A DNA stretch of 64,000 nucleotides from assembly GCA_030141605.1 (NCBI GenBank), contig JAQGDQ010000172.1, forward strand, positions 372,001 to 436,000. The letters are read 5' to 3'. Of this stretch, positions 15,358 through 40,096 are shown in pieces. The translations under genes and the position numbers were made by a program. Source of the DNA: Tubiluchus corallicola (lineage: Eukaryota > Animalia > Priapulida). The first letter of the stretch is position 1. Every line of letters begins with the position of its first letter. The notes below the pieces were generated by a model. The model did no database searches, was not told the DNA's origin, and saw only the letters and a program-made list of their open reading frames with translations.

Positions 15358-15529
15358 TCATCTGCTATAGCTGCGGCTACGGCTTCGGCTATACCATGGT
15401 GTTATTGAACGGCTACGACTGCGTGAGTATGATGCTGACGTCCATGACCCATATGGGCTCCAACTGCTCTCATCATCTGAAGGGGTTGGGGGCGTTTCTC
15501 TTCGGTAGGGCACAGGTCTCTTCCTTGCA
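15358..15529 (-). CDS. Terminal exon of the SRRM4-like gene: second half of eMIC and RS tail
   Basis: TTCTAATTCTAG| at 15530, then (S)ARKRPVPYRRETPPTPSDDESSWSPYGSWTSASYSRSRSRSITPWYSRSRSRSYSR, stop TGA at 15360-15358. Confidence 0.88.
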
Positions 15530-18500
15530 CTAGAATTAGAAACCAATAACTCTGCATTAACTCACACTACAAAACACAGAACAAATCTGGACTAAGAGTG
15601 TTTTTAAAACTTTATAGTTTAAACTGCAATAACGAAAATATGGCTATAGAGACTCTGACTAGGACTCTACCGATTTTAGATGCGAATGAAATAAATAATG
15701 AAAAAAATACATCATTATTATGGTCTTCTGTATGTTTTCTTTTTTCTATTAAAATAACAACTTTACTTAAACCCTAAAAGCAAAGCATTAAAAAAACATC
15801 CAGGCTTCTCGACTGCAAACATATAGTCTTCATCATTGGACTGTTTTGTGTTAGAAGCCATGTAGGTTTATATAGGCTAATTGCTTAGAGTAAGTGTACA
15901 TATGACTAGAAGCCCATTGATGAGGTGTAAACAATGCAGATACAGCATTTAGACAGAAAGTACAATGGTACTATAAAAATAAAGATAATTGAGATTGAGT
16001 TACCTTGCATATCGAGACAGGGCGCATTATTGTGTACTGATAGACTTTCTTCCTTTAAATAAGAGATCATACTTCTGCCGCTGAACAAACTCGTGACTGC
16101 AGTCATTTCAGTACTGTCTATGCTAGAGCTAGAAATGACTGTGATCTCTTAATTAAAGAACGTCTGTCAATGTACAGCAACAACCCCTCCTTTAATGTTC
16201 AAGGTAGTTCAACCATCTTATCTTTGTTTTCATAATACCCCTGTACTTACTCTAAATAGTTGTTATATCTACTTATTTACATACCTACCTCATCAATTGG
16301 CTACTAATTATGCATAAACTTACTGTAAGCAGTTAGGCCTATATAGACCTTCATGTCACACAAAAGAGTCCACTGCCAGCTTTTTGCAGTCGAAACTTTT
16401 GGACGTTTTTTGTGCTTTGCTTGCTTTTCTTTGAGTGTTTTGCAATGTTGTTACTTTAAAAAAAATATTCATTCACTGTCTGTTTACTGGTTTTCCTTTT
16501 TTACCTGAAACTGATAGACAGCAGTATGTTGAAATGTCTTTGTGTCTTTCAAATCTGTTTACTTGTACACCCAATTTTCATAAGAAACGCAAACATATAT
16601 ATGTGCAATTACATCTAGCAATATCATGAAATCCACATGCAGTTATAGCAACATAGCGACAAACTAAGTTTTACTGATAGTCTGTCTAAATATTATCTGT
16701 AAACTACAATGTTAGTGTGTTATTGTAGACTAAACTGGCGACATTTGCAGAAATTGCATATAATTATTAGTAGGCTACCATATTGTAAATGACAGCATAT
16801 AACTAACCTTAAGTAATAATTTTGAAATGGTAAGTGCACATTGAATAGCACTCAACGGGTTTGCTATTTGTAGTTAAGTGCTATTACAGTATTAGTCACT
16901 TTATTAGTGTTTTAGTCGCGATAAATTAATTTTAGTTATTAATTCTTATTACATATATTTAATTAAAATATTACTGCTCGTATATGCCTCATTGTATTGC
17001 TTGCGTATAGGCTAGGTAAATCTGTAAAAAAAACAATTTTTACGTTGAAAAAATAAGTAATAACTTTTGTTATAACGAGAAGAAAATCAAAATTTTCCTC
17101 ATTATATTGTAATCTACAGTTCGTAATAATTTTTATGCAAACCTGGTGATTCTTCTTCTGGATTTGAAAGACGGTGAAACTCTTTTGCGTAGAGGGCGTC
17201 GCTTTCTTGGACTAGTTGAACGACTGCAAGTTGCTGAACGAGATTGCCTGGCCCTAGATGCTGATCTTGACCTTGACATCCTAGCTCGTGACCTTGACCT
17301 TGACGAAGAGTGATGACTACTTATTTGTGACCTGCAAATTCACCAAACCACTGACATTACAATTTTTGCTTTCTGTGTCACCTTTTGTTAAAGATGTTTT
17401 TTTCTGTGAAATCTGGCACCTGACGATTAAAAAAATTGATAATTTGTGCAGAAGATTTATTAGAGATGTTCATTGGGATAAACTTTTGGAGAGGTTATAA
17501 AAATAAAAATAGCAAGATTTTACTTACTGAAACTTTGACTGCTTTGACATTGAAACTTTGACTCAAAAATAAGAGCATCATTTAGCAGTTAATCAGCAAA
17601 AAGGATGTGAAATGGAGAGGGAAGAAAAATAACAAAAAGTACAGGAGGAAATTTAGAAAGAGAGAGAGAGAAAGAGAGAGAGATGATAATACTGAATGCT
17701 CAAATCATGCCCAATGTGGTCAGAATCAGATGCACAACCTCAATTATAGCAAAACACACAGTATGCTCTAATTTTAAATAACTATTTCATTCGTACATTA
17801 GAAAAACATTATTAAAACACAGCTTAAATTAGTTAACACAATATTTTTGACGTGGTCGTCATTTTGATTTTAATGAATTCTCATTGTTTTATTTTTGTAG
17901 GAATTGCACTTAGCAATGAAATCACTACTTGTAGTATTTTTTCGACAAGTGACCGTAGGTCAAAGATCTGCCAATCTCCTGTCAACTTATACCATTCATT
18001 TCACCCTATCGAGGCTTTCCTTTGATACACTAGAAGCTAGCGTCGTTTGATGCTAAAGCATTTGTCTCCCCGAACCCTGCTTTGCCCCCTAGTTGGGTCA
18101 CACGACAACCCGTTTTGCTGAAATTTACACCGTTCAATTCGTCTCATTGAAACTTTTCATTTTATCTCCTGCAAGCTATTGTCGATTTACATCTGAGCCA
18201 TTTCCGTCCTCACCTCCAAATTTTGGTTTTTGCCCTCTAGCGGAAAGTACTCCAATATCTACGTGCCCATATTCAGCCATGCGCAAGACCTTGATCCAAT
18301 TTAGTCATATGCTAAAAATTGTAGCAATAGCTCAAAAACTTTAGGAGCAGATAGAACCTAGCGAACCTATCCCGTTCGCTCTGCAACGTTTCACCCGGCA
18401 TTGTCGGGTCACTACCTACATAATTCTTTTAACTTAAGGAGTGCGCCCTGTGAGTTTTGCGTCCCTAGCCTTTTACTGCTGCTTGGCAATTTTTTAAAAC

Positions 18501-21500
18501 CCTGGGGTGCGCATTTACCCCCAGGTACCTAAATACTTGTGAAAAAAATAAAAAATATTCTGAAATACCTGAAAGGAAGAGTTGAATCACAATCGTAAAA
18601 TTGACCTTCGTCTATTGACATTAACCCCTTGATTAGATGTCAAAGGTCAACCTATTGCTGCCCTTCTCCCGTCCAGAACTACCCTCCCTGTGAGTTTTGC
18701 AAATTTAGAATGCAAGGCTAATGAGCGAAATGTTTGTGGTGTGTAAAAGTTAAATAACTGTATGAGATTCAAGAAGATTTTTTTAGCAAAACTTTAATTA
18801 TACCTCGAGCGAGATCTTGAGCGACTCCAGGTTTTTGATTTCGATTTTGCTGCTCTCACTGTGTGAGGTGGCGACTGTGATCTTGATACACTCCTGCTCC
18901 GCGGCTGTAGCTTATAGGCAACTGGAAGAGGAGGCGGTGAATTACTCGGTGATTTCGCCTCCTTCATTTCTACTAACGGCCTAGGAGAGATATCTAGAAG
19001 CGGGGATGCCAGAAAGGTAAAGGGAGAATCCCAACCGTTTACCTTTTCGTTTCGAGATGACGTATTTGATAAAGGAGGCGCATTTCTTGCATCTAAAGGT
19101 ATTTTTAGTTTGCTTGGTGTGATGGACCGTGTACTTCTTGCTGAAGCTGTTGAAGACCTCGAAGAGTCTGATGCAAATCGAGACCTCATTAACTGACGTA
19201 TTTTACTGCTCGAGGTACTGGAAGTAGACCTAGAGGAACGCGACCTTGATCTGGACCTTGACTTTGATCTTGAATTTGATCTTAATATTGGTTTAAGTTT
19301 AGGGCTTGAGCTTAATATTGAACGTGATCTGGAATGCATTCGTGGAGATTTTCTCTTATACTTTGCTTTCTGGACTGTTGCAGTTAAGTTTGTCAAAGTC
19401 TTTCTCTTTTCTCCAGAAACTTGTAAAAGTGGCGAATTACTCTGAAAAATATATTATGTAGTCGTAAATGCTGATACAGACATCAGGAGCTGATACAACA
19501 AGGTTTCCAAAACGAAAAGTAACAGAACTTACCAACAAATGCTGTAACCATACCACTATTATACCATACAAAGCCAATAAGTAGGGTCATACCAAATTAT
19601 AGCGGAAAAGTTGGAATTATATAAATATAATGACATGTCACAATGATGAAATCCAGATTCATTTTGAGGTATTTCTTCAGCATGCCTCAGAACATCAACA
19701 TAATAAACCTTTCCAGCGATTGATGATGATCGTGAAAGGGTCAACGGCTAAGTGTACCAAACAACTTATTCGTGTACACTTGAAACGCCTCGCAACCCAT
19801 GCTATTGTAACAGTAACAGTTTTAACAGTTACATAGAACCTTACCTAGTTCATTTTTTCTTATTCACAAGCAAGATCCTACTAGTAAGTCACTCTACTCA
19901 CAGACTAATGAATAATTAAGTAAAGTCCACATAAAACAACGGAAGTTTACTGAACTGATGTGCTTTACCCCTATGGCCACATGTCACGTGGCGGTTGTAG
20001 TTAAGACCGCTTGTGGTACACTCAACCTTTGACCTACAGCAACTGCGCGTGTGAAAAGGCTTATTTAATTTCTACTGCACTGTTCCTTTTGAAACACCCA
20101 GTATAATACATAATGAAAATATTCATGTAGCATGTACCTGTCTAGAATTTGAAACGCCACATTTTCCATTTTCAGTCTTGACGTCTTTTTCTATTCCATC
20201 AAATTAATGTTCAAGTAAGTTTTACATTAACACAGCCTACCGTGAAAAGGTCACGGAGTCGTAACATAATGCTCTATTTAGCAAATTCGCTATCGTGACT
20301 AAGTCATAAAAAGTAGTCGTTCAATGATGCTTTCTATTTCGTTATTGACGTTGATTAAACACACTATTGTGAATTATGGTATAACTTACAGAGTGCATGA
20401 TAATTTACAAATTTTCATGAGTTCATCCAAATTAGCCTTGGACTAGATGTTAGACTAGATGTTGGACTAGCATTAGATGTTTAAACAGTAACAATATATA
20501 GATAATAATAACAACAATAATGCGCTCACTAACTTTTTCAGTTGTCTTTACAGCTAAGTAGGTTTTCTGTTGAAACTCTGAACATTTTTTTTACATTTCT
20601 TAACAATGAAAGATTTTTTAAGCGCCATATATTGTATTCGATAAATATCATTACGTACACTATGATACAAAATTTTCGGCAGACATACTTTTGACTTTTC
20701 CACATTATGAGAATGACTGTGATTCCTGCTTGAAGATTTCCTTTTTCTTTTAGGCTTTTTTCTTTTCAGCAACTGAAAAGCAATACAAAAAAGCACATTA
20801 TATCAGGAGCAGTGGAGTTGCCCAAGTAAATGCAGGCATAACAGTTTTTGTGAAACAGTGGACTGTTTACGTATACTGTAGTATGACTCTTGAAATTTGT
20901 AACTTTTATTTTTTCTTGTAAAAAATGGCCGTCAAACACTGTCAACCATTTTCTCTCACTTTAGAAATAATTGAGGCATACCTTTCCATTTTCGTCTCTT
21001 TTGCGAAGATGATCACCCTCTCTTCGTCTGCGCAACTTTTTTGGCTTCTCACCTGAACCTTGACCAGTTAAACTGCTGAAACGATCAGAGAATTGATCTG
21101 GATCAGCTAACAATGCTACAAATCGCCTAATCAGTATTCACAGTATACTTGGTTTGGTGTAACACACAACAAATTACACATTTCGTCTCAAGTCACCTCA
21201 TCTCTCAGATCAGCTCACCTCATCTCACGTGCCTTACTTCATTTGACATAAACTGAAATGCTCACTCATTTTACCGTTCTTTTCTCTGTGTACTCTCACT
21301 TCACATTTTCTCCCTTATCTCACATGGCTTCACGCCTTCAATTCCGTACCTCATGATCTGATTTCGCTAGACCCCATTTTTTCTCACGATTTCATTTCTC
21401 ATCTCAACAGATAATCAACGGTTAAATTTAGGAGAAAGACGGCTCTGAAAATTTGGAGTTCAAGATTCGAACTCCGAGCCTTGCGATATCAGGTCACAGG

Positions 21501-24500
21501 TCACACGTTTTATCTAATTGGGTTATCAACCAACATGGCCTGAATTCTCGTACTTATCACGCGCAATAAATCAGAGCCACCTTTTCGTAGTAAAGAACAG
21601 CTAATTAATTAGTAAGGTTCCTTTGGGTCCTTAGCAGGGAACACAAATAAAGTACATACAGCACCAGATTACAGTACTTATATAATGGACAATTAAATTT
21701 AGAAGGAAGAAATTTAATTTGAAATTTATATTATATGTAAATTCCAAATATACATGTAGCTTGACTCTAATAATTTTTTTATTAATGTTTAGTGAAAAGC
21801 CATTGTACTTTTTTAGATAGCCTACCTTTTGCAAATTTTAATTAAACGTCTTTTTTTCCTTTTGTGTTTGTGGTCACCTGCCCTGTATACATTAAATATC
21901 CCCTTGTAAGTGCAGGATTGTAATTGAAAGTTTCAAATAAAACACAGAAACGCACATTTTTAATGAAATCTACTAGATAGTTATTTTACAATACAGTACG
22001 TAAAGGAAACGTAGCAGAATTTCAGCTCACAGTAGATTTTCAGTGAAGCAAACTGAAAATACATTCACGACAGTGAAATTGATAGAGAAATTAAAGAGAA
22101 GGCATGCATTAATGTAAGTGTGATGTTTGACGGTACTCTTTTCAGAAAGTTGTAGAACAATACCTCTAAATTGAACTGAATTCATAAGCAGCCAGAAAGT
22201 TCGGCTTTTGGCTGGATTTAAATCAGTGCGCTAACTGGTTTTTTTAACAGACTCCATTACAGACACTGTAAACCCACAGCAATACAATGAAATTAAAAGA
22301 CCAAAAAACAGATACATATAATTATAGGAAAACTAAAAGGGCATGCAGACAAGAGTGTGATATTTAATTAGTGCAAAAATATGGACTGCCTACTACATAT
22401 TTGAGGCGATTTTTACTTTTTTATACAGCTTAACGTGCAAAAAACATTCTGTCACTTTCAGAGCACAGCAACAAAAATTCTGATTAAAAGCTCTGATCCT
22501 ATTATTAATAACAAATGAAATCGATTAGCCGTGGAATAAACACTTTTTCTTCAACGAAAATAAAAAAATCGCTTACTTTCTACATGGAAGATTGGTTAAG
22601 ATGTACACCCAAAAACCAATTAAATACGTTCATTTTGTAATACTGACTACTTTTTATAAACATTTCAGACATACAAATCAGCTCTTCCACCTTTACTTAG
22701 CTTTTATAACAAAAAAACTCTCATGTGCTCAGGGCTGGATTACCCTACAGTCTGGTATAGGCTTCAGCCTAGAGCCCTTCAAGTATGGGGCCCATACTTT
22801 GCTTTGCTGACTTTAGAAAAGGAGGCCAGGAAATCTGAAAATCCAATTTTAAAGTAGCTTCTCTTATGAGATAAAGAATCTCTGTTTGAGGCCTTTTATT
22901 TGAGACAATGAGCCTCTGTTTGAGACCGTTTATCAGAGATGTTCCTCTCTTTGAAGCCCTTTATTTTAAATAAGGGGCCGCAGCTGTGCAAATGTTGCTA
23001 AAATATATCACAAGTAAAAATATTCGAGACGAGTACGAGCAAATTAGAGAGTAGCTCCGTTTGAAAGGAACCTCATAATTTCATTAGCCTAGGCCCCAAA
23101 AGGTCATGATCTGGCCCTGCACGCGCTACACAAATGTGCTTATTGTAGGCCTATATTATTGTGACGTTTACAATCACAAAATAATTATGATGTAATAGGA
23201 AATCCACAAAACAGCACCTGCGCAACAAGCTGTCCATTAACTGTAGAATATAATTATGGAAGAAAGAGTTATGTATGCAACAAAATGTTGACTTTTGAAA
23301 ACCGTCAAAATATCTCATCAAAGGCCGCAATAAGACTCCATAAATCTTTCCAGCGAAATTTGAATATTACATTCCCCACACTTGATGTCCGAGAACTTGT
23401 AATTTGGCTGTTAATTCCGAACGCTTTTTGGCGTGCACATATTTGGTATTTAAGAAAGATTTGCGACGAGCAATTCAAAATTTATCTAATTTTTATAAAA
23501 ACACAAAATTCCAAACGCTGTACATCATTAAAAATACAAAAATCATACCTACCACCATACAAAGAATTGTCATCATCTGATGTCGTTTGCGGGCTAAGGT
23601 ATAGTAATAAACTGTTATAAAATGAATTATTGCACACCGCTTTAGAATTCCTAATGTCTATGTAATGATATCGGCTGTGTGCATATTTAAAACCAGTAAA
23701 CGCAATGTTATGACTCTGTAAAACAACCAGCTTCACCTATTTAACTGTATTTACAGTGTATTTAAAAGAAAAATGCTAAATAATTCAACAAAAAATAAGC
23801 CAATGTATAGCCACTTTTAAGTGTTTTACACGGATCACACCTGAAACAAATTGATGCAATATGCAGAACATATAATAGTTAAAAAATATTATCTATCAGT
23901 TATTATACTGTCATGGATACGTTAATCGCAAGCTTACCTTATTTTATATTTTACACGTTTTTTCTTGCGTTTTATTTCTGTAGACCCGTCAACATTCTCT
24001 GCATTATCACTCGTATTCCTCTGTTTCCTTTTTGATAATGACCTTGACCTGGATGCTGATGTTGACCTTGACCTAGTAATATCATAATTTCATTACTTTG
24101 TGCGATTGCACTATAACGTTTTTGGGTCATATGTGTTACATTTGTGCTGCTATCGCAGTTTCTTACGTTGTCACTTCCCAAAGTCTCCAACGGGACATTG
24201 AATGCCTTGCATTAGTTCGATTTTTCCTCCTCCGTCACCCTTTGTAACAATACACTGCGTTAAGTGTAGCTTCCAGTATCTCAAAATCCCAAAATTTAAT
24301 TACCTGGCCTAAGTGTATGATCTTGGAAGCCATCCTATAGTTAGGGCAACCAATATCAATGCAAACACCTTGTGACCAATTGTAGAAAGTGCTACAGTGT
24401 GGCACCACCTAATCAAATATGTACCATTAGAATTTTCTAAAAGGTCAGCTCCTAAACATCGGCTCTTGTGTATAACTTTGGGTAAAATTGTAAAGATAAC

Positions 24501-27500
24501 AAAACGGTAACGGTGTGATACAATAAAAACAACAAGCTGCGATCAACAATATAGCTAACATATTATTTCTGCATATATTTTTCCTCAACTCGTTATCTAA
24601 TGGTAAACTATAGAATGTAGAATATTTATTAGATGCGTGCAGTGGAATCTACTGGGTGTACCAAAAGTCCCAAATTATTTTTAAAAAGCATTTTAATTTT
24701 TCAAGAGAAACCAAATGACAATATAGTTGTTGAGTCTACCAGTCACGAGAATATTGACGGCATCAAAACTGACTTCATAGGTCTATTGTAGCGATTTTCA
24801 CCTATGTGTGTCATGCTCTTTTTTGTATGTAGCCAATGCAGCGAATTAGTACTCTACTCTGTTCTGAGGAAAATAAAAATGTATACTAAACAAGACTGAA
24901 TTAATTTAGCTCCAAATCCATGAGCGCAACGCCATGACCGCGTTTACACCTGACTATACCTTGCCGAGAGTGGGTGACTTATGTCAATACGTGTAAATTA
25001 CTACTCTCCATCATTACTAATCAGTGAATCAGTACGTACGGTTCTCTTGACTAATTAACAGTTTACTGTCTCGTAACTAACGACGAGTTTAGTTACTACA
25101 GTTTTAGAGTCATTCATTGCTATGTATTGAAATCCGCCATCACGACGGCGTTTGTGACTTGACTGTGCTTTGTCAGATGTCACTGGCCCAGCCCTTTTTA
25201 ATTACTGAGTACTAGTTTTTCACGAGATCATTGCCGATTAGCTCAGAAGAAACTTGAAAACTAAATTAATGAGGGACTTGTGAGAAACACCCTGTACTGA
25301 TTTTGAAATGAGCATACCTGGAGCGCTTAAGTTTGGCTTGAATGTGCTGTTTTTGGGTGTCTGATTTATCATCGGTGTCATCATATTCATCGTCATCCTT
25401 GATTTTAAGTTTTGTCGCTGCTGGGGAACACGACAAGTTTCTATGCTTTGACCCTAACCTACAGATTTATTTAAAAACTTTAACCATGTCTGGATTATTT
25501 ATTGTATTAATACAATAACGCATTTACAGATATCTTACAGATCGAGTTGTTTTTGTTTGAGAAATAATCAAAAGATATTAATGCATAAAGCAGAATATTA
25601 AATTAAATATTCATGCAATTACTGTAAAGACAGAGGGTTATTAATTCTCAACAGAACAGAGATATTAATAATAAAAACACTAACGGGTATAGCATTTTAA
25701 GTGGGTACCAAAGAAAAAAGTTACTACCACATCCAACAATTGAAATTACACCGTTTCAACTATTTCCAGAATTTTTAGCGAAGAAAACTTTAAGAATTTT
25801 TTCTGAAAACGTTTTTCAAACACCCTGTTAACTACCAACTTACCCTAGATTTGAATCCAGAACGAGCAAAGAATTAACAAGGGGAAATACTTATTAGAAA
25901 TATATTGTCATCACAAAAACTATTGTACGAAATTTTATACAAAATGACATATATCTGTGGTAAAAATTTTAGTTAACACAAATTTAATACACATGATTTA
26001 CGACACTGATATGTTATATGTTGCGTATTTTTGTACAGTAATACTTATTTTTAGAATAAAAGAATTCATCGCAATTTACAACAAAATAGTGAGCTATTTC
26101 AGAGCTAGATAAATAACATAAGAAACTAAATGTACGTGAGCTTAGCCCTGTTGGAAAAAACTAGCAGGGATATTTACAGATAAGCTGATTTTTGTTCTTT
26201 GCATTGACTATTAAAGGAGAAATAAAATTAGACCTGCTATTAAGCCTGCCCATGCATTTATTGAATTTTATTACTGCGTTTTATTTATTGAATCGAAAAG
26301 CATATTATTGAAACTAGCCGAATAAGCGGTAAGCCCAAACAAAATTTTGTCTTTTTGAAAAATACAACCATAACTATATATCTGTGCAACAGACTGCTCA
26401 TGCAACAGGCTTGAGCAGTCTCGCAGTGTTAAACTAAAATGTCAAATATCAGCTATTACGACATTGCGTTGATTTAAAAGCTATGTGCTGATTTTTTAAC
26501 TAATAAGTTTATTTTCAATCCACTTAACAAAATTATATTAAGTTTGAATACCTTATCGTTTTGCTTGCTTCGGTTTCAATTTCACTCAATTTTTCTGAAG
26601 GTCTAATCTTTCTGAAATGTTCCATATAGATGCTAGTAATACTCATACATACATTTTTATACTTACATAGAATTTTAGCTTAAGGGCAAAAAACTATGTG
26701 CCTTCTTTTATCCCCATTTACAATTATTTATAATTTTCAGTTTAAATAGTTTATTCGATGTCAGTAATAGTAAATTAAACTAGGAATCAGTAAATTATAT
26801 TTAAACGTTGAGGCGATTCAGACGGTCAGAAAGTGTTTTTTGAAAACAAGCATGTTGCCCTATACATTTTTCATAGTTCTTCCAGTCTTTAAAATATTGT
26901 AAGTGTAACAAAGATAAACATATTAAACAACAAACAATAAATATAAGAAACCCTAGTTGTTTTGTACAGAGGCTTGTAAACTGACTATAGTTATACTTAC
27001 AGGCCTACACATTTTGAAATGTTAATAACAGTTTTTTTCACATTTAGTTAGATAAAAAATTGATAAAAATATGCAGAACGTGCCATTAACATTGAACAAC
27101 AAAATTAATTATGGCTTTTCAGTTAAACAAATTGCTGTTGTTTTTCAATCATATTTTTGTAATAATATTTTATTATGTTGGCTACCTTTTAGCATCTTTG
27201 ACCAAGTGATGATGCATACGGCGTTTTTTCTCTTGTTTGTTTATATCTTCTAGTGACTTCCTGTAAATTAACGATGTAATCATATAACTGCAGCGACAAG
27301 ACTATTACTCACAAATTTCCTGGTAAAGAAATGTCAAAGAAAATAATTGTTGAATTTCTTGTAATGTTGAACATCTATTCTTAACTGGTAGAAGCAAAGG
27401 TTTCATTCAATTTTTCTAGCAACTTTTTATTATCGAAGAAAATTTTTTATAAAATACAGTGATAAAGTTACTCATAAAGTTTGACAAAACTTGTTTCATA

Positions 27501-28299
27501 ACTCGTTATCTAGTCAAAGGTCTGCGAAAACGTTCATGTCTGATACATAAATTGTAAGTTTTTTAAACCATTCTAGATAATATTCTCATTTGTCTGGCTT
27601 TACAAAATTAAAAAATTAATGAAACTATTGAGCCGTTCTAGCCACATTTTAACTAATAATAATAATGATGATAATAATTTTTATTTGAAGTCGGCTTTTG
27701 TGTGAACAATTAACCTGAGCTCAAGGAGCTATTATCGCGCATTTTTAACCTAAACACCACGCGCCAGGCGAGGCAACAGCAGGTACCATTTTTGAAGTCT
27801 TTGACCGGCCGCTGTATCGAACTCACAACCTCCCAGACGCAAAGCAGACGACGCGTTACCAATAAGCTAAACCGACTCGTCTAGTTCAGAGAAGTGTTAT
27901 AAGGCATAAAATACGCTTTTAACTACTATAAATGCAAAAAAAACATTTCAGCAAATCAAGTTTTTAATGTACTCACTTTAGCAAGTTTTCCGTGGAAATA
28001 GGCCTACTTTTCTTTCTTTTGTCTTTAATGAGAGGTTTTGCATAATCTTTTTGATAAATTCTGGAAGGAAAAAACATAAGAATAACTTTCATTTAACAGT
28101 GACTGATTACAGAAAGCCACCATTGCAGAAAAAATACTTTTAACGTTGGAGGGCTTAATCACAAATTTATATTGTTAAAACATTTAATAAATTTTTGTAA
28201 TGAACAAATTCTTATAACTTACATCGTGATCTCATCACTGCTAGCTTTAAGGTTATCTGTTGCTCCTACAGAGGAATTTCTTCTAGTTGGGTTGTCCAT
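15358..28299 (-). CDS. SRRM4: SRRM2/3/4-family (Srrm234 / SRRM4-like) splicing factor with C-terminal eMIC (SRRM_C) domain, ~15 coding exons, ~646 aa
   Basis: Phase-consistent GT-AG chain: 28299-28223, 28060-27977, 27260-27186, 26611-26552, 25458-25318, 24072-23938, 23593-23549, 21882-21826, 21075-20982, 20772-20689, 20566-20530, 20190-20138, 19441-18804, 17331-17143, 15529-15358 (1941 nt, no internal stop). Lys/His-rich N-terminal half, RS repeats, then ...SPSFKSRRRITS|ARKRPVPYRR...YSRSRSRSYSR*. The family call is strong; small internal exons, the start codon and one-to-one orthology to SRRM4 are less certain. Confidence 0.8.
17143..17331 (-). CDS. Penultimate exon of the SRRM4-like gene: RS tract and first half of eMIC
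   Basis: TTTGCAG| at 17332; encodes SQISSHHSSSRSRSRARMSRSRSASR...RVSPSFKSRRRIT; phase-2 donor AG|GTTTGC at 17142. Confidence 0.85.
17940..18745. mobile_element. Probable non-autonomous Helitron/Helentron-like relics in an intron
   Basis: Short hairpin cacccggcattgtcgggtcacta at ~18392-18415, internal repeat ccctgtgagttttgc at ~18446 and ~18686, GC content above the flanks. Classification is tentative. Confidence 0.35.
18804..19441 (-). CDS. Large RS-rich exon of the SRRM4-like gene (638 nt)
   Basis: TTTTTCAG| acceptor at 19442 in frame with track ORF 18794-19396; AG|GTATAA donor at 18803. Encodes SRSKSRSRSRSRSS and NGWDSPF. Confidence 0.85.
22730..23119 (+). mobile_element. hAT-type MITE (390 bp)
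   Basis: TIRs CAGGGCTGGAT...ATCTGGCCCTG with an 8-bp TSD catgtgct / cacgcgct (two CpG-type differences). A second copy lies inverted at ~40097-40519. Confidence 0.8.
24650..25295. mobile_element. Tc1/mariner-like non-autonomous element
   Basis: Left end tactgggtgtaccaaaagtccc, right end gggacttgtgagaaacaccctgta: an imperfect TIR of the TA-CAGGGTG type. Confidence 0.5.
27654..27881 (-). mobile_element. tRNA-derived SINE with a Meta-like core
   Basis: Minus strand: A-box TAGCTTATTGG, B-box GTTCGATAC, core GGTCAAAGACTTCAAAAATGGTACCTGCTGTTGCCTCGCCTGGCGC resembling the Meta-SINE central domain, and a (TTA)n-type tail. Confidence 0.7.
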
Positions 28300-28960
28300 T
28301 CTGAAAAATAGAAACATACCTTCACATACCGTTAAAATGCAAACAAATTAGGATGAAATTTGGCACAAAACTAGGATGTGTAATTAAAAATTTTTCCGGA
28401 TCGAAAAGCAAATCTTAATGAGCTTAGTAAGCGTACATCGTTTAGAACATCTTTTAGGAAACCTAAAATATATACCAAAAGAAAATGACAAGTCAACAGA
28501 GCTCTAAAGGCTTAACAGAGTAATTGTAGTTAGTAACTTGAAATAAAGTACAGACAATGCATATAATAATCCTAGAATATAATTTCAGTCTCAAATTCTA
28601 AACTTGGCGATACGTGTTAAAGTTCAAGTTACGCTGATGAGGACTTTGTGATTAAAATGCTGTCACAAAAATGCATTGAGACTTGGATAATTTAGTTTTA
28701 CTTCTACAATCATAATGGCAAGTATTAAGAGAGTACTCAATTTCTTGGCCTCTATGGTTTTCCAGATGACTCAGCCTATATTACACACTGATCTGATGGC
28801 ACACATTCATTAATAATAATATTTTCTGATAATAATCTTTGTGTAAGCTCGTAGCCCTGGCGAATCCTACTGTGTTTTTCATTGGCTAAGCGGGACGGAA
28901 TACCGTTAGATTCGCTAGGAGCACGTGGCGTTCCGGATTGTTATCACTGCAGGTGTACCT

Positions 28961-29030
28961 AACAGTAGCCGAGGGCGGACTCAGGTGCAACAGTAGCCGA
29001 GGGCGGACTCAGGTGCAGCAGTAGTCGAAA
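28961..29030. repeat. 28-bp tandem repeat (~2.4 copies)
   Basis: acagtagccgagggcggactcaggtgca repeated. Confidence 0.85.
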
Positions 29031-30150
29031 GAGATTCAGGCAGCGATTAGTACTAAATATAGCAAAATCCAAATTTGTTAAACATAAGCACTTTTATATT
29101 ATCCCAATTCCAAAATATTTTTTGTGATATCAGTTTGCTTGATGACAAAACAGTAAATCACGCGACTATGAAACGCATACCACAGTAAATTTAAAAGGCA
29201 AATATTTTGATGTTGATCTCTCAGTTTTATATACATTTATGCGCTTAAATATTCTGGAATTATTTGGCAAATAGTTTTTTGTGCAAATCGATAGTTATTA
29301 ATACGAGTTATTGTTACATTATTGTTATATATTATTACATATCCTTTTCATACAAGCTTAAAAACAGACCTGTTTCTTTATTTGCTCGACAATGCCTTCC
29401 TCACTATCCACACTTATACATATGATCAAAACAACTCCTAAAATGAAAAAGTATTTTGACTAATTATTATTACCGTTTATCAAAAAGCTACAATGTTAGC
29501 ATTAAAAGAACCACAAATAATACGTTGAATATTTTTTGTATGAATAGTTCCTAAAATTACAAGCAACTATAATCTTTTACACCATTGTATACTACAAAAG
29601 CCGTTGATTTCAAATTTAATTCCACGCAATTCTTACAGCAAGCAAAAGCTGTAGCCCTTGTGTGCTGTATGAGTGATTATTGCAAGCACAAGATCGATAA
29701 TGTATCGATTCGAAAATGTAAATATAGGCTATGCTTTACCCAGCTACCGATACTTGTGTGTGACTACAATGACGTTGTAAAACAAAAAATCTCAAGAACA
29801 ATAACATTGATTTCTGAAATGATGCTTTTTTCTTAATAATTTATTTATTAAAATGTTCATGAACGATTAATCATGAAATTTCGTGATGCACAAATACTGA
29901 AAGCGAAACAGCAGGCAAATGTGTTACAATAAACAAGTTTTTAATTTCTCTATCAATTAAGCTTTATCGAACAATTATTATTGCAAATTGTTTGATGTCT
30001 ATAGGCCTGCCATCGTGGTAAAACAAAGAATATCACTTAAAGATACCGTGCGCACCTATAGTAACACTGCAGCCTCCTGTTTTTCTCATTTTGCCAATGG
30101 AAAACATATAAACTTATTGATGATTTGCTAGAGCAAAAATCCATACTTAC

Positions 30151-30330
30151 CATTCTTGCGGCCCATAAATGGTACTCGTTTTTTCAGCACCTATTTGTTT
30201 TTCATTCCATCCAGTACACTTTTTCATGCGAATGTATGAGAGAGAGAGAGAGACAATGGAGCTGTTAAATATGGACAGATGTTACAATAATTTGCATAAA
30301 ACGTCGCGCGCATGATGCAGTAGCTTCTGT
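30151..30330 (-). other. Probable first (5'UTR) exon / TSS region of the SRRM4-like gene
   Basis: Strong donor ATG|GTAAGT at 30150, with a (CT)n tract and a CpG patch at 30240-30312. When spliced to 28300, its ATGs give only short uORFs. Confidence 0.45.
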
Positions 30331-30984
30331 ACAGATCAATGAGATGCTATTGATCGTAATTATTGTGTATTCCTGCCGCTAGACGGAAGCACATTGCAGT
30401 TCGCCCAAAGTTGAATTATTTTCTTAAGTTTTAAACGAGAAACAAAGCTCGTCGTACTTCCGCTAAAATTTATGCATAACCAATATTTGACGTTAATATT
30501 GTCTAGCGTGTTGCGTCTTTTGTCATTGAACGTGTGTGTTAGCAACTTTTTTGCCAATATGACACAATATTAGAATGTCGCATGCAATTCGTAAATAATT
30601 CTATAAATAATTACTAATTTCACTGGTGTTTTGTTGAATTTTATAATTGTCCGAATTTTGGCCTATAATAAAATTAAATCGATTGGGCTTATTATTATGA
30701 AAATATTATTATTACACCTTCGTATTGATGTTATTGTGATAATTAATTTAAATATTTATTTTTAAACAATATGTACTAATTTATTTCGTTTAAATATTAG
30801 CTTCATAACATCAACAATTTTTCGGAAACATGTTGATGTTTGCACCCGTGTTGCTTAGTTTTTGAAGGTGCCTGTATGTTTCTATATTCATGAATGGCAC
30901 TAATTACTTAAACTTATAACAGTAATGAGCCATTGCCAAAGTACATAAGTGAACTATAACGAAGACCATTTGGACTATGATCCA

Positions 30985-31285
30985 CTTTCATTTCATGATC
31001 CACTTTATTTCACTTCACTTCATTTCACTTCATTTCGCTTCATTTCACTTCATTTCGCTTCACTTCACTTCACTTCATTTCATTTCACTTCATTTCACTT
31101 CATTTCGCTTCACTTCACTTCATTTCACTTCACTTCATTTCATTTAATTTCTTTCACTTCAGTTCACTTCACTTCACTTCATTTCACTTCACTTCATTTC
31201 ACTTAATTTCATTTCACTTCACTTCATTTCACTTCGCTTCACTTCACTTCATTTCACTGTACTTCACTTCATTTTACCTTACCTC
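30985..31285. repeat. (TTCAC/TTCAT)n pentanucleotide microsatellite
   Basis: Directly visible. It generates the spurious FTSLH ORF. Confidence 0.95.
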
Positions 31286-32929
31286 GCCCACATCACCACA
31301 TGTTACTTACCACACCTCGTCTCTTCTTGACTCACTTCAGTTTTACCTAACATTGTTCACTTATTTTAAGGAACTTCGTTTCTTAGTCATTATGCGAAAT
31401 ATAGGTCCATATTTCACCGAACATTTCAGCAATGATACTTATTGCATAACCTATGATTACGTGTATATCTCCTTTCACGTTGTGGACATGAAAGCTTGCA
31501 AGTGTTAAATACGCTTCACCAATGTATCGTACTGAAGCCACGCGCTGGTCATGCAATCTATCTTTTCGTTTCACTAATCACGGGAAAGATTTAGCTCAGC
31601 AATACGCTACTCCATTTGATAAAATGGCACAGTTACGTCTAATGAGTAGAACAGTGTCATTTTCTTAAGTAAAATTCTCTAATGTTTCTCAGCTTGATCT
31701 CTTAATGGGTATTCCATTAAACCTCTGAACGTACTCCTTGCTCTTCTTGCAGGCCAATGCATGCAGTCTCGACTGTATTTCATCATTTCTCAGATATCAG
31801 AATGTTGTGTGGTTGACGTTTAGGAATTGTTTTGGCTCTTATAGAGATAACTACGACAAAAGATAAAGGTATTTTTAAAGCTAGAAATAGCATCATTCTT
31901 TTAGCATGGCAACAACTCACGTACGATAAAATACTATAAGCTCAAATTGCAATGATGGGAGTTTGATATAACAGCACATGCGCACGTTTGGTTTGAAGGT
32001 CATAAGTGAAGCCTAACAAGACAGTAATTACAAATTTTGTCTACATGACGTTTGACATGAAACAACGTAAAATGTGTGGGCGGTTGCCTAGAGCTGCGAT
32101 GAAACGAAATTGATGATGACTCTTTGAGTACAGTGTTACACCTTGACGAGTTAGGCCTATAAGTCAGTTTTTCGTATGTAAGAATTAAAGAAATGTATGT
32201 AAAATCCGATTAAACGATAAACACTACAGTCGGCCACCTCGCTTTAAACAAAAAATATATTATTATATTAGCTAAACACTAGGTTAAAATTTCTCATATA
32301 AATTTACTGAAATTTATGTGGCATTTGAAAAACTTCTTCTGTTACTCATTAGACTATATTCGTTAGTTTATATTCTTTGCTTTGTTTACTTTCACAGGGT
32401 GAGATAATCTAACAAGCCCTGCTTTTTGATTGCCCCGCAGCGCATTTACATTTATATATAGGTAGGCACGAGTGTGAGGCTTTTTTGATCAGAAACAGTA
32501 AACAAAATATACCGTGTTCATCGTAGGCCTTTTCATTGTATTTTCGTACACAAAATTGTTGTAAATGTGTTATGTGAAATAAATGACTTATGATTTATTG
32601 TGACTTACTAGACCAATACATAGAATGTCATATATCATGGCCAACTCGCAACTTTCCAATCTCGCGGGCGTTTTTTAAATGGGACTTTGTAAGAAAAAGG
32701 AATATTACATCTGCTTTTCATCCAATAATATAATTGTTTAGTTGAATTTTCTAAAATATCATAATCGAATGCATGAAAGTATTAGTTATGAATATAAATT
32801 ATATAGCCGTGCCAAATAATTTCCGAATTGCTTTTTCATTATGCAAAACACCTTTATATTGTTGTTCCACTTATTAATCTATAGCTTAACTTAGTTAAAT
32901 TAACCTACCTCGATTCACTGAACTTTCTT

Positions 32930-33770
32930 AAGCGAGATGCATATACTTGGGTTAGATTTGTTAACGATATCTTTAGCTTTACCGGATTTTGGCAAATCTG
33001 GGATAATCAGCACAATAACAATATAAATAAAAAAAATTGTTGCAAACGCTTAAATTAACATTTGAAAGTAAGTATTTATTCAAATTGATAGATGATATCA
33101 ATAGAGTATCTAATAATGAAAATCCGGAAGGAAAAAAGTTGAGAACCTACTGCAAAGCAAAAAACGGTTATGGAAAATTATTTGCTCACCAACATTTTGA
33201 CTCCAAAACTAAAACAGCTTTTTGTAAACTATGAATAAGTGCCCATAGTCTAGCCATTGAAACAGGCACGCATCATAAATGGTACAAGTTACCAATAAAC
33301 GAAAGAATTCGTAGACAACTAAGAGGAAGATGAATTGCACATGATGCTTTTCTGCCATATATATAAGCATAGTAGGCAGAATATGTTCGCACAAATTAAT
33401 TCTTTATGTCCTGGTTTTCTAGATATGCCTGGTAAAGATAAACTGATTTTTCTAATTGGGACCAATGATGTGGATATTTTAAATATAGTGTGTAACTATG
33501 TAAAATATTGCTTTACAAATAGGTCAGGAATTTAATTGTTGATGTCTAAAGGGATGCTGCACCAATAGTTTAAATTTTGTGTTTATATTATTTTATATGG
33601 GTATTATACAACAACATGTGATATTTGTGAATGTGTAAATATTTTGTTTTTTTATAAATGCTTTAATTGTACTCTTGTGAGCGTGTGCGTTATGTAAAGG
33701 AGGGCAAAAATTTGTATTAATATTTGTATACGTGTTCTGCTATCCATTGAATATATCAAATATATCAAAA
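32930..33770 (+). mobile_element. 5'-truncated LINE 3' end (C-terminal domain plus 3'UTR), decayed
   Basis: KKLRTYCKAK...TAFCKL*ISAHSLAIETG...ERI...EDELHMMLFCHIYKHSR...NYVKYCFTNR, the typical SAHxLxIETGR and EDExH---C motifs. Confidence 0.8.
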
Positions 33771-36700
33771 AATATTAAAGGAGTAGTACGCAGTTGAAAA
33801 ACCAGTTGAAAAGAATCTACCGTGCTTCATCAGGCTTCTTGATTTTTCCTGGATCCTCCACATGGCGCCAGCATCTTTTTGTATTGTTGTTTTTACCAGT
33901 GTCATATGTTGGTTGGTTGTACAACGGCTGATATCGTGTGGTAAGATATTCTTTGGGTGATGTCGATACTGGTTCGTTTTGTAACTAGGTGACTTTGTTC
34001 GTACATTTGTTGATGTGTATTCTCTTCGATTGCCTTGCTGATTGTTTCAATGGGCACTTGCTACCTGTTGGATACTTGTAGGGGCATTCTAATCAGCTTT
34101 GGAGGAACGTGCTGAGGCTGTTTGGGTTATCGAGTCCAACTAACTTCCAGTAATTAACGTACTGACACCAAAATGCCGTTAAACCCAATATGAAATGATG
34201 ACTTGCCACCCATGCAAAGACTCTTTCAGTATGGGTTTTTTCGTTGGGCGTACAAACCCAGTTATACAAGTCCTATGTTTTTTTTGTTAAAATGTGTAAA
34301 CATTCCAGTTGTTCGGGGGTTATGGCGACAATTCGTATGGTTTGGTTATACAGTTTTGCAGCTTATGATGAACTATACGGATGTATTTGCTTTCGTCTAC
34401 GTTTACATTGCATATAATTTGTCATAAACCTGCAGGATCTATCAGATCTACAGTCGCCTCATTTGCTGACTTAGAGCAATGTCACTACCATAACCGAAGC
34501 CACAGTTGCAGTAATTGCACCGTTATATGGAGATCAAACAAACCAAAAGAGGCGCTGGCGTTATTGTTATTACAGCTTTAAACAAAGAAAATATGTAACT
34601 TTACGTAAAATCCCCAAAACCCAAGTTTTTAGAAAGTCGGAAGCTTTGATTGCTAAGGGTGCCTCGTGGTACACAGTAATAAATTACCTCAGTTAGAGAG
34701 TCACATTCAAACTGAATTGTTTCTTACGTTTTTCAATATCACGATTTTTCTGCGTTATTTGCGCACTGAATAACTTATATATCCGATTAAATTATTGAGA
34801 ATGTTGTAGTCGTTCCTTAAGTCATTTAAAGGGCAGTACAGCCTGTCTTTTGTTTTGTTTCCCTTCCCTCCTTAAGTGAATTAGGAAAAATAATTTAATC
34901 AAGCCTAGCAAAGCACATAGTTTTTTGCAAACGTTGCACAACGTAATTCTTTTTGGGCAAAAGTTGTGTAAAAGAAAAAAGTTATTTTAAAGAAAATTTA
35001 TGGCTTTTTTACCAAAAATCAACTTCAGACAGAACCAGTGGCTTTGAAAATCGCCCAAAACAACGAATTCATTTCAAAAACATTGAACAAAGAACCAGAA
35101 CCATGGTTCAAGAATTTTTAACAAAATCTTTCCATGCAAAGCCCATTGCCTTTTCACAAAAATAATCGAGAGCAAAGTCCTAAAGTAACTGAAGCAGTAA
35201 TAACATCTTCACCACGTCAAATTGCCTTCATCCGTTTTAATCAGCTTTACTTTACTTATTTCTGAAGGTTAAACAAACCAATGAAGATTCACATTGATAT
35301 TTAACCCATAGTCACTGCTCACTATAATAGTACAGGAACATAGTTCACTTTTTTGCAAAACAAAAATTCTGGCCTAGCCAAAAATTGGAATCAATGTCTT
35401 ACATTTTAGCCCCGCCAATCTCGTCCAGTTGTGTGAAGTAACCAACTGAGCTCCAATCATCAGATCTCTACATCCTCTATACCCTACTTCATCACATTTA
35501 CTGTATTTTTAAGAAGTCAGAAATAATACAACAGTGTTTTATGTGAAGCTCTGCAAAGCCAACTGCCAGTAAATCTTTCTATACAGGTAATGAAAAGAAG
35601 CCAGCAATTGATTAAAGGTAAATGCATAGTTCAAGGTTCTGTATAATGATGGAAGTTTGTATACAGAGAAATAAATCAGTTTCATAGCTGAAATTTAGTG
35701 AGTTCTTTGCATGAGATTAAAATTTGATATTTTTACAAAAGAATGTAATAACATGACTATCAGAATAACATTCACTGGATAAATGTATGTACATGCTATT
35801 GAAAATCATGACTTATTATAATAACGTCATAATCAGTTAAACAAATTGATAGAATCATGAGCTTCACGACATTGATCACTATACTCCTTACAGCTTTCCC
35901 ACCTTTCACATCGTCATGTCCTTCCTCCTCCTCATCTTCGCCCCAGCCAGGCATTGAGTTTCACTACAAGCAAAACTTGTCCCAACGACAGACATAGTAA
36001 CTGAAAATTGTCCTAAGTGAAGCCTACGCCTTTCTTATCCGAAGCGAAACTCTACCTGCCTTCAATGAAGCGCAAGGCAGTAGCTGGCGTTATGATGATG
36101 AACATGATGATAGACACCGGGGAAGTGAGATAAAACCGCAAGCATTGTGCATCTGTAACTCTTACAGTTCAGAATGCTAGACAGATATTGGCGAGAAGCT
36201 TGGTAAACCTGAAATACGTATATGTGTGTATTAATCAATAGCAATCATCGAGCTGAGATTAGAAAAAAATCAATACAAGTTCTGCATGGTAAAAATAATA
36301 ATAAAAGTTATACTGATTAGTACTTGATGATAAGAAAATCTATAAAACTTTATAACCTATCGTTGGTTAATATTGATGCACGTTTCTAGTTTTTATTTTT
36401 TTATTTTTATTGAGTTATTATGGAACGTACAAAGGCGCAGGCGTAACGACGGGCATTATAGCAGCAAGGCACAGAAGCGCATGCATTCTCTATAACCGCA
36501 GTTACTGCAAAGCTGATTGCCTAAGTATATTAGTGACTGCCTGCAACAGTGCGAAATTAACTTCTGGAAGCCTAAAAGAATCATTTCACTGGACGCTTTG
36601 TCGATCTTTTGTAAGTGCATGGAAAAAGACGAAAGGAGATAAGTACACTATTCAGGTATTTTGCACGTTTACAGATTTCTAAGGATGATTCTTTATTTGT

Positions 36701-37440
36701 TCGCTTTCCGTAACAAAGTAATTAGTTTTCTGAGAAATAATCCATGTAGTAGCATAAGTTATGAATAAGCTATATAAATTTGCTAGCGACACTTTAATTA
36801 CTTATTCATGGAAAAATGCAGTTCACGTCCAGGCGTCGGGTCACATGCACAGTTAATACAAGCATTACTGGATACGAATATTTACAAATAAAGCCATTCT
36901 CAAAAGTCAAGTAGGCAAGCAGGCAATCATGCAAACAGGTTGCCTGGCAGAAGGCAGACAGGTAAGTAGGTAGGCAGATAGGCAAACAGGTAAGGAGGCA
37001 GTAGACGAGTAAACGAGCAAGCAATCAAGTAACATCTATTGCTTATTAAACGAACGTGTATTAAATTATTTTTACCACCTATTAACCTTCGGGGTTTGTG
37101 ATTGAAAAGTTCAATGGTTAAATATTTTCAACAAGCAAAAAGAAATATTGTTGTCCTAAATCTGGACATAATCTTCCTAGTCGATAGAGCTTAACGGCGT
37201 TAAATAATGACGAAACTATTTGTACCACAAATTGCACCCGCCGTAACACAATAAGCTAAAATTATTCTGCGACAAAACCACTGTGAAAAGTGTGTGATAA
37301 CATAGTTATACTAATACTCTGTCATCTCATTCAAATTCTAAGAAAGCTGCTGGATGAACTACATACTTATCTAACGTTCTTAAGAATCCTTTTAAACTTT
37401 GTATTGTTCGAGATCAATTAAGTGAACACGTTTTCAGAGT

Positions 37441-38746
37441 TACTTAAAAACCTTGTTAATTAAATACAGCATTTTTAGAAAACGCAGCCTATTTAATTTT
37501 TGTGTAAGATGTTTTGTTACATAAATTAGCCAATTATGTCCTATTCTCGCACAGATGTTTTCGTTTATTCGGGCTATCTGAACATTTGATTATACACATC
37601 AGTGATTTGCGCCCTGTCTTTTGTGTTCAACTTATATGGTTTCAGGATTATTTTCTTATTAAGCCGTATGCGTTTTGTTGTATCAGCATTACTACACATA
37701 TTTAAGCATGCGCATATATATATATGTATATATATATTTGTACTCAACGACATACTTTATTTATTATGTTGAAAATTCTGGCTGTACCGCAACTTCTTTT
37801 TAAACATATTCCCAAAAACGCGGCACTGGACTGGGCTCAACCGACACAAATGCCTTTACCCCATTTACGTAAGTGTACATCGTCTCTTGACAACTGAAAT
37901 AGACGGAGTGGTATTACATATCATCAGTGAAACAGATTTCCTGCCTGTCGCCCATTTATTTACTAACAAGGTTTGACGTTACTTAACTGCCATCGCTAAA
38001 ATAAGCACGGTGACCACACAGTTATCTCAGCTTTTTGTCTTACCTTCGCTGACCACAACGTAAAGGAAACAGATAATTTATATATGAATCTGGACTCGAA
38101 GGGATAGGGCCTCGCTCATAGGAAGAATTGCTTGACCAGCGAAGGTGACCAGCGTGACACTACCGCCTATTATAGGCCCTCTATGCTTGAGATGGAGTAA
38201 GAACTTGATGAAAACTGGCACTAATCACGACACCACTCTGGTCTTAGTTCTTTCAACGTAAAAGCTCATATCACCCATTCAAAAAGAGGAATTATTTACT
38301 GGAAGATGTGCAGTTCGAGATAAAGGCAAAAATGATACAATGTATTTGCCATCGTTTTTCGGTTTTTAAAAAATCTGATATCCAAGTAAATTCTTGTTTT
38401 TTTTTAAGTAAATTAATGTTAGAATCAGCGAGCGTAGACCTTTATCATCAACCATATCATTCAAGATAAATATAAATGTCTAGATATACATGTAGTAATA
38501 CTTATACAACAAAGCGCATACAGCATTGATAACAAAATAATCCTGAGACCATATAAGTTGAACACAAAAGACGGGACACAAGTCACTGATGTGTATAATC
38601 ATACCTGAGATAGCCCGAAGAAATGAAAACACCTGCGTAAGAATAGGACATATTTGGCTAATTAGCACAAGAATATATTCTATACTAAAACTAATAGGTT
38701 GCCTTTTCCAAAATGTGCTGTTTTTTAATTAACACTTTATTTAAGT
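37441..38746. repeat. Inverted duplication with ~270-bp arms (37441-37710 and 38476-38746)
   Basis: The arms are diverged reverse complements. The ORF track shows this as IIHISDLRPVFCVQLIWFQDYF (+) versus IIHISDLCPVFCVQLIWSQDYF (-). Confidence 0.85.
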
Positions 38747-39079
38747 GTGAAAGCAAAAAAAGTGAAATAAAGGACAATGTGAAATTTTTCGAGATGTTAT
38801 GCCACTTGAACTAAATAAAATTTTATGCAGTAACTATCATAATGATATTGGTGTAGGAGACAAATAATTTCCAAAATTTGAAGAGAAGTTGTTTAAGTTT
38901 TTGATGCACAAGTTCCAAGTTCTGTTATTAATGTTAATTGTTATTACTTAACAAATCAGAGATGCTGGATTTATTTTAAGCCAAATGATGTTTCAGATCA
39001 CTGGTGTGGTTTATCATCAGGTGAAAAAAAGAGGAAAGGGGAAATATTTAGTAGCTTAATGTGATTATTTTCCCCGTTT

Positions 39080-40040: not shown

Positions 40041-40044
<4 letters not shown>

Positions 40045-40096
40045 TACAGAATGCACCAACTAAAACATGGTCCGGACTTATTATTCTCTTACCATT

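What the first reader, a model, noticed from the sequence alone, without database searches (positions are those of the whole stretch)
15358..30330. Apparently stand-alone SRRM4-like eMIC gene (no cwf21 found) in an invertebrate-type genome
Seen: a 15-exon phase-consistent ORF ending SPSFKSRRRITS|ARKRPVPYRR plus an RS tail, a likely first exon at ~30.15-30.33 kb, and an ATG at 28299. By eye I found no MYNGIGL...RGSGTNGYVQ start or cwf21 exon in the 34 kb upstream. Known: eMIC (RRITSARKRP[I/V]PY) drives neural microexon inclusion. In invertebrates it is normally an alternative C-terminus of the single cwf21-containing Srrm234 gene, whereas the dedicated cwf21-less SRRM4 is a vertebrate paralogue. 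Inference: this may be an independent duplication, or an internal-promoter isoform, converging on the SRRM4 architecture.
Basis: partly seen in the sequence, partly recalled or inferred. Interest (0 to 1): 0.8.

Follow-up and report, generated by a model that had tools for sequence, protein, structure and literature searches.

The report
Likely stand-alone SRRM4-like gene in invertebrate
An invertebrate carries an intact 15-exon gene for a 646-residue splicing factor that ends in the microexon-enhancer motif but has no spliceosome-binding cwf21 part in the 35 kb before it; it is likely a separate gene copy that would parallel the vertebrate nerve-cell factor SRRM4, though a very long intron of the ordinary gene is not excluded.

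Summary
Observation confirmed. A 15-exon, 646-codon reading frame (minus strand, 28299-15358) ends in an eMIC split at RRRITS|ARKRP. An RNA-type contig of a relative joins the first four coding exons. Profiles built here find no cwf21 or Srrm234 N-terminus in the window (best E about 1), with good power on planted controls.

New support for a stand-alone gene: the shared first half of the eMIC is unusually diverged (KS where 33 of 33 cwf21-bearing relatives have L/M-D/E). The 34 kb upstream lacks the CpG depletion of the neighbouring housekeeping gene (0.89 against 0.36). A CpG-rich candidate first exon puts an in-frame stop just before the ATG.

Against: no genome was available, so cwf21 was never located elsewhere. 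The upstream stretch is gene-free, so nothing bounds the locus. The ATG exon can accept a phase-2 exon. The candidate first exon has no RNA support, and the relative's contig starts at that acceptor, which hints at more than one 5' partner. An eMIC-less last-intron form is not excluded.

Verdict: stand-alone cwf21-less gene about 0.6; ordinary Srrm234 with a giant intron or internal promoter about 0.33. Earlier scan notes list only the ordinary Srrm234 switch, in another genome.

The parts
30150..30600 (-). Candidate promoter and non-coding first exon (donor after 30151); splicing to 28300 makes TGA directly before the ATG
   Evidence: CpG o/e 1.33 [0.93-1.82], like the 8.8-9.2 kb 5' region; two ETS-like and one octamer-like motif (motif meanings recalled); junction translation; no RNA cover
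28223..28300 (-). Coding exon 1, ATG at 28299; 78 nt, could also be an internal phase-2 exon
   Evidence: X2 contig covers 28235-28301 and begins at 28301
27977..28060 (-). Coding exon 2
   Evidence: joined on both sides in X2
27186..27260 (-). Coding exon 3
   Evidence: 716-nt intron skipped in X2
26552..26611 (-). Coding exon 4
   Evidence: joint 26610-27228 in X2, short side 21 letters
25318..25458 (-). Coding exon 5 (acidic stretch)
   Evidence: predicted from splice sites and frame
23938..24072 (-). Coding exon 6 (short RS run, first strong lysine-rich block)
   Evidence: predicted
23549..23593 (-). Coding exon 7
   Evidence: predicted
21826..21882 (-). Coding exon 8 (lysine-rich)
   Evidence: predicted
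20982..21075 (-). Coding exon 9
   Evidence: predicted
20689..20772 (-). Coding exon 10 (lysine-rich)
   Evidence: predicted
20530..20566 (-). Coding exon 11 (37 nt; restores frame only together with exon 12)
   Evidence: predicted; least certain exon
20138..20190 (-). Coding exon 12 (53 nt)
   Evidence: predicted
18804..19441 (-). Coding exon 13, large RS-rich exon
   Evidence: two X2 contigs cover 18802-19117, differences mostly silent
17143..17331 (-). Coding exon 14, RS run and diverged first half of the eMIC
15530..17142 (-). Last intron, at the position where relatives switch between eMIC and non-eMIC ends; read-through gives a stop after three codons; three poly(A) hexamers
15358..15529 (-). 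Coding exon 15, second half of the eMIC, RS tail, stop
30600..64000 (.). Gene-free upstream stretch: no cwf21, no Pfam family at cut-off, no Rfam match, CpG not depleted

Best explanation
[quoted passage not shown] Shown: the frame, the eMIC, splicing of the first four coding exons in a relative, and the lack of cwf21 in the window. Inferred: the first exon is non-coding, so translation starts at 28299 and a lineage-specific N-terminus of about 175 residues takes the place of the cwf21 block ahead of the lysine-rich, RS and eMIC parts. Inferred: it arose by duplication of Srrm234 (about 0.45) or by fission or loss of the cwf21 part (about 0.15), with the core-spliceosome job left to another locus. 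Taken from the family literature and untested here: the eMIC helps SF1/U2AF recognise weak 3' splice sites with a UGC element; the diverged first half may have changed or weakened that activity (about 0.7 that it still works).
For: (1) No cwf21 or N-terminal block in six frames; held-out fragments starting in the first 10 residues beat the best window score in 16 of 16 cases at every length from 12 to 30 aa, and cwf21-region fragments in 55 of 72 (20 aa), 61 of 64 (25 aa) and 56 of 56 (30 aa). The gap needed is over 33 kb, while the 14 introns of the model are at most 1666 nt. (2) In relatives the first half of the eMIC is kept in both eMIC and non-eMIC isoforms; 33 of 33 have L/M then D/E there and this gene has K-S; it matches the majority at 12 of 22 columns against 14-22 for the 33, and at eight columns its residue is found in 0 of 33. 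That fits release from the constraint on the ubiquitous gene. (3) CpG o/e: GOT1B introns 0.36 [0.22-0.51], this gene's introns 0.73 [0.64-0.82], upstream 0.89 [0.84-0.95], 0 of 16 upstream 2-kb tiles under 0.5; low CpG marks broadly expressed genes in honeybee (PMC2975444, passages). (4) CpG-rich candidate promoter and in-frame stop before the ATG. (5) The first 145 residues resemble none of the 120 relatives (best E 3.5).
Against: No genome was held and the genome index gave no near-copy and then closed, so a second, cwf21-bearing locus was never seen. The upstream stretch holds no gene that would bound the locus. The ATG exon is a symmetric phase-2 exon like the seven that follow it. The X2 contig starts at 28301, at the acceptor, which in an assembly graph suggests two 5' partners; one could be a cwf21-side exon, though unspliced RNA would look the same. 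The CpG argument rests on one comparator gene, long introns tend to be CpG-rich anyway (PMC2975444), and about 3.5% of 400-nt windows are as CpG-rich as the candidate promoter. The 33 relatives were picked by likeness to a mollusc-like query, are not independent, and include no close relative, so the divergence may be a lineage trait of a single gene. The lysine-block argument depends on the threshold (residue 177 at 7 of 10, residue 33 at 6 of 10). Reviews describe one Srrm234 gene as the bilaterian state (PMC10551640, passages).
Confidence: 0.6

Rival explanations
1. This is the 3' part of the ordinary single Srrm234 gene. The cwf21 exons lie beyond the window across an intron of more than 35 kb and splice to 28300; the element at 30.2-30.5 kb is an internal promoter (or a stop-bearing cassette exon) that yields a cwf21-less isoform.
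For: Phase-2 symmetry of the ATG exon; gene-free upstream stretch; contig start at the acceptor; an acceptor-like AG near 30262 would make the 'first exon' internal; single-gene state reported for non-vertebrates (PMC8797185, PMC10551640, PMC6800468).
Against: Intron about 20 times the longest in the gene; no CpG depletion over what would be a housekeeping gene body; divergence in the exon shared by all isoforms; in 30 measured relatives the lysine-rich block follows the N-terminal block within 46-133 residues, whereas here up to about 175 unrelated residues would be inserted.
Confidence: 0.33
2. Assembly artefact or decaying copy: a misjoin separated the cwf21 exons from the rest, or this is a duplicate on its way to losing eMIC function.
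For: Diverged eMIC first half; DNA run X1 gives only short pieces and none bridges the upstream region.
Against: Intact 646-codon frame, mostly silent differences from the relative in exon 13, spliced contigs in the relative, invariant core and second half kept; no N in the window.
Confidence: 0.07

Closest known systems
Invertebrate Srrm234 (Drosophila CG7971 isoforms C/F versus A/G; abalone XP_067651386.1 versus XP_067651420.1; sea urchin XP_003726265.1)
   Same: Lysine-rich then RS-rich body, eMIC at the C-terminus, and an intron exactly where the relatives' isoforms diverge, after RRIT (PMC8797185 results section, first of five parts read).
   Different: No cwf21 or MYNGIGL block within 35 kb; unrelated N-terminus; eMIC first half diverged at columns that are near-invariant in 33 relatives; no proximal terminal exon identified.
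Vertebrate SRRM4/nSR100
   Same: Predicted layout of own N-terminus, RS region and eMIC without cwf21. The ESM Atlas gives SRRM4/SRRM_C clusters among the top hits for exons 15 and 13, at 0.83 and 0.82, which is lead level only.
   Different: SRRM4 arose from duplications in vertebrates (PMC6800468, passages) and has its own N-terminal domain (figure legend in 10.1101/2021.09.08.459463); this gene would be a parallel, not an orthologue. Neural restriction is untested.
Vertebrate SRRM3
   Same: eMIC and RS region.
   Different: SRRM3 keeps cwf21 (recalled; the legend seen lists cwf21 among the srrm3/srrm4 domains without assigning it).

Membership tests
Srrm2/3/4 family, eMIC-bearing | eMIC core and second half | tested here: met
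   blastp best E 5e-8 to relatives; profile 16-19 bits against 10.0 for the best of 500 shuffles
Srrm2/3/4 family, eMIC-bearing | Conserved first half of the 39-residue eMIC | tested here: inconclusive
   SPSF and RRRIT kept, but 12 of 22 columns match the majority against 14-22 in 33 relatives; K-S for L/M-D/E
Srrm2/3/4 family, eMIC-bearing | Arg/Ser-rich region | tested here: met
   49 RS/SR dipeptides in residues 316-560 and 16 after
Srrm2/3/4 family, eMIC-bearing | Pfam SRRM_C (PF15230) at cut-off | tested here: inconclusive
   No hit on the single exons; the domain spans the intron and the joined protein could not be given to the Pfam tool; three relatives pass
Single-gene invertebrate Srrm234 | N-terminal MYNGIGL block and cwf21 in the same gene | tested here: inconclusive
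   Absent from the whole window; sequence beyond 64000 could not be examined
Single-gene invertebrate Srrm234 | eMIC completed by an alternative last exon | tested here: inconclusive
   Intron at the switch position; read-through stop and poly(A) hexamers present, no clear proximal exon, no RNA cover
Vertebrate SRRM4 | No cwf21 in the gene | tested here: inconclusive
   True within the window only
Vertebrate SRRM4 | SRRM4-specific N-terminal domain | not tested
Vertebrate SRRM4 | Neural-restricted transcription | not testable with these tools
   Only contigs of one run of unknown tissue; the CpG profile is indirect
Vertebrate SRRM4 | Promotes microexon inclusion | not testable with these tools
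   Needs a minigene or knock-down assay

The most novel reading that the evidence does not exclude
An invertebrate lineage (priapulid-like by earlier scan notes) independently repeated the vertebrate move: it duplicated Srrm234, dropped cwf21 from one copy, gave it a new N-terminus and its own promoter, and so controls its neural microexon programme by transcription of a dedicated SRRM4-like gene instead of by last-exon choice. Its naturally altered eMIC first half would mark residues that serve the core-spliceosome role and not microexon enhancement.
Probability: 0.4. Interest if true: 0.72.

Novelty: new variant of a known kind. Interest (0 to 1): 0.5.

Why it matters
The published picture is that non-vertebrates restrict the eMIC to neurons by 3' end processing of one Srrm234 gene and that only vertebrates do it with separate, transcriptionally controlled paralogues (PMC8797185). 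A second, independent cwf21-less eMIC gene would show that this split is repeatable and would give a natural comparison for how an alternative isoform becomes a gene. The K-S substitution at two otherwise invariant eMIC positions is directly testable in the established fly-cell microexon assay. If the locus is instead ordinary Srrm234 with a giant intron, the finding is minor.

Tried and rejected
Whole-genome search for cwf21: no genome held; the genome index does not take proteins for animals, returned only short repeat matches and no near-copy for a DNA query, then answered busy six times and closed. No RNA holder was listed; X2 came by species label. X2 does not cover the candidate first exon, coding exons 5-12, 14 or 15 at 88% or 80% likeness: no evidence either way. 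Exon 13 residues 95-212 found no longer homologue. Exon 15 against 1.8 billion representatives gave one spurious repeat protein, P0121. No PDB match, no Rfam match. A degenerate cwf21 in coding exons 2-4 was considered and rejected: negative profile scores. The best tblastn hit of N-termini (E 0.055, 22948-22820) lies in a repeat also present at 40.1-40.4 kb. A 6-nt UGC-type microexon in the last intron (16510) was rejected as unremarkable: the pattern occurs 10 times on each strand of the window. The promoter scan is bacterial and uninformative. Spliced-leader trans-splicing at 28300 was considered; the paper search gave nothing usable (listing only). The 2019 paper that defined the eMIC is not held, so any invertebrate duplicates reported there or in its supplements are unseen. 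No structure or complex prediction was run: the protein is low-complexity and no partner sequence was on hand. The taxon was not tested; an ABHD17 search gave about 60% identity to arthropods, molluscs and others alike.

Full report
Gene model. Reading the minus strand and testing splice sites by script gave 15 coding exons from the ATG at 28299 to the stop ending at 15358, 646 codons, all 14 introns GT-AG. The first eight introns are phase 2. Two small exons (20566-20530 and 20190-20138) keep the frame only as a pair and may be skipped together. The protein runs: about 145 residues with no similarity to relatives, a lysine-rich part, an RS-rich part, the eMIC, and a short RS tail.

RNA evidence. 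No RNA holder was listed; one run, X2, came by species label and is RNA by guess. One 294-nt X2 contig joins coding exons 1 to 4 at about 86-88% identity, so it comes from a relative or a distant population. Two more contigs cover 18802-19117 of exon 13; of the 24 differences listed (40 in all), 18 are at third positions, 16 codons silent and 6 changed. The gene is therefore real, spliced and under purifying selection. The contig begins at 28301, one base into the acceptor. Contigs here are 200-300 nt long, so a break at that exact spot is unlikely by chance (my estimate, about 1 in 100) and suggests a branch, with two sequences feeding this exon. Spliced first exon plus unspliced intron, or two different upstream exons, fit equally. 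The candidate first exon and the eMIC exons are not covered, which is no evidence either way.

Is cwf21 in the window? I collected cwf21 N-termini from metagenome contigs (114 loci, 112 translated, 45 distinct used) and 120 longer cwf21 proteins. Three profiles of 123, 174 and 197 positions found nothing in 4711 six-frame fragments: best E 1.2, 1.4 and 3. With nine sequences left out of training and eight of them cut into fragments, fragments from the extreme N-terminus beat the best window score in 16 of 16 cases at all lengths, and cwf21-region fragments in 55 of 72 at 20 residues and 56 of 56 at 30; the variable linker was detected less often (17 of 48 at 20 residues). So an ordinary cwf21 start would have been seen. 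All 137 stop-to-stop frames of 55 residues or more upstream of 30.3 kb were scanned against Pfam: six had weak hits, none at a curated cut-off. The upstream 34 kb is gene-free, which leaves the locus unbounded.

The eMIC. Of the 120 proteins, 33 carry the first half of the eMIC and 15 the second half (one of the 15 with an insertion). Isoforms without the second half diverge right after RRIT, for example abalone X2 against X4, which is the position of this gene's last intron. The model matches these proteins only at the eMIC. The first half has diverged: an unconstrained search gave LD 30, LE 2 and ME 1 of 33 where this gene has KS, and the upstream serine-proline-isoleucine-glycine pattern is lost; 12 of 22 columns match the majority against 14-22 for the relatives (nine of those columns were fixed by the search pattern). 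Because this exon is shared by all isoforms of the ubiquitous gene, such divergence suits a copy freed from that role. The caveats are that the 33 are biased towards conserved sequences, include related species and isoforms, and contain no close relative.

CpG profile. CpG loss records germline methylation (PMC8821070, passages; it predicts methylation in Priapulus) and marks broadly expressed genes in honeybee, where long introns are also CpG-rich (PMC2975444, passages). Here GOT1B introns are at 0.36, this gene's introns at 0.73 and the upstream stretch at 0.89, with 0 of 16 tiles under 0.5 (an earlier pass, included non-intron sequence in the GOT1B set and gave 0.38). The upstream DNA thus does not look like the body of a housekeeping gene. 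This is one comparator and is suggestive only. The 30150-30600 region is CpG-rich (1.33), like 8.8-9.2 kb (1.37), and carries two ETS-like motifs (motif meaning recalled); 3.5% of windows are as rich. Splicing its donor to 28300 creates a TGA in frame directly before the ATG, so if used it is 5' UTR or a stop-bearing cassette.

How it likely works. Transcription likely starts near 30.3-30.5 kb, a non-coding exon likely joins the ATG exon, and the product would be a cwf21-less RS protein whose eMIC would help SF1/U2AF assemble on weak 3' splice sites of short exons (mechanism from passages of 10.64898/2026.09.14.751627 and PMC10551640). cwf21 is not needed for microexon inclusion (PMC6800468, passages), so such a protein could work alone, while the cwf21 role in the catalytic spliceosome would need another locus. 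Whether the gene always completes the eMIC is open: read-through of the last intron gives a stop after three codons, like relatives P0153, P0173 and P0179, and poly(A) hexamers lie at 16963, 16905 and 16196.

Literature. Seen: PMC8797185 (first of five parts of the results) and passages of its preprint; passages of PMC6800468, PMC10551640, PMC12992808, 10.1101/2021.09.08.459463, 10.64898/2026.09.14.751627, PMC8821070 and PMC2975444. These describe one Srrm234 with an alternative last exon in non-vertebrates, three paralogues in vertebrates, and eMIC loss in nematodes. Searches listed no paper on a cwf21-less invertebrate eMIC gene; most listed papers were seen as listings only. The defining 2019 paper and its supplements were not available and may bear on novelty. 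Earlier scan notes call this genome priapulid-like; I did not test that. One note describes the ordinary Srrm234 switch in an arthropod.

Verdict. A real, intact eMIC gene without cwf21 in the window. Stand-alone gene 0.6 (duplication 0.45, fission or loss 0.15), ordinary Srrm234 with a giant intron or internal promoter 0.33, artefact or decay 0.07. New variant of a known kind if it stands alone. Interest 0.5; 0.72 if the full SRRM4-like convergence holds.

Noticed in passing
window 7634-8520, minus strand: Intronless, intact ABHD17-like hydrolase (about 60% identical to animal ABHD17s, 90% to unnamed P0001) just upstream of the GOT1B start codon at 6736. The spacer is CpG-depleted and the nearest CpG-rich region is 8.8-9.2 kb, so it may be a retrocopy inside a 5' UTR intron of GOT1B, sharing its promoter.
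   Followed up: partly
window 2-823, plus strand: Uninterrupted 272-codon ThiF-family frame (SAE1-like by my reading) running off the window start, tail to tail with GOT1B; possibly another intronless copy.
   Followed up: partly
window 2935-6736, minus strand: Five-exon GOT1B-like vesicle transport gene, identified by eye from its translation; used as the housekeeping comparator.
   Followed up: partly
window 25606-25871: An X2 contig matches this intronic, low-copy stretch end to end at about 93%, closer than the coding exons, at depth 71. No long frame, no Rfam match, no repeat in the window. Could be a retained intron, the 3' end of a short isoform, or a conserved element.
   Followed up: partly
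window 16505-16510, minus strand: 6-nt microexon-like stretch with an upstream TGC inside the eMIC-splitting intron; inclusion would insert two residues into the eMIC. The pattern is at chance frequency in the window.
   Followed up: yes
window 58612-58751 and 63512-63585: Degenerate telomere-like hexamer repeats inside the scaffold, in a repeated element.
   Followed up: no
window 9200-12000 and 39055-39776: Purine-skewed, broken frames that look like LINE debris; weak reverse-transcriptase hit at 39055-39246.
   Followed up: no
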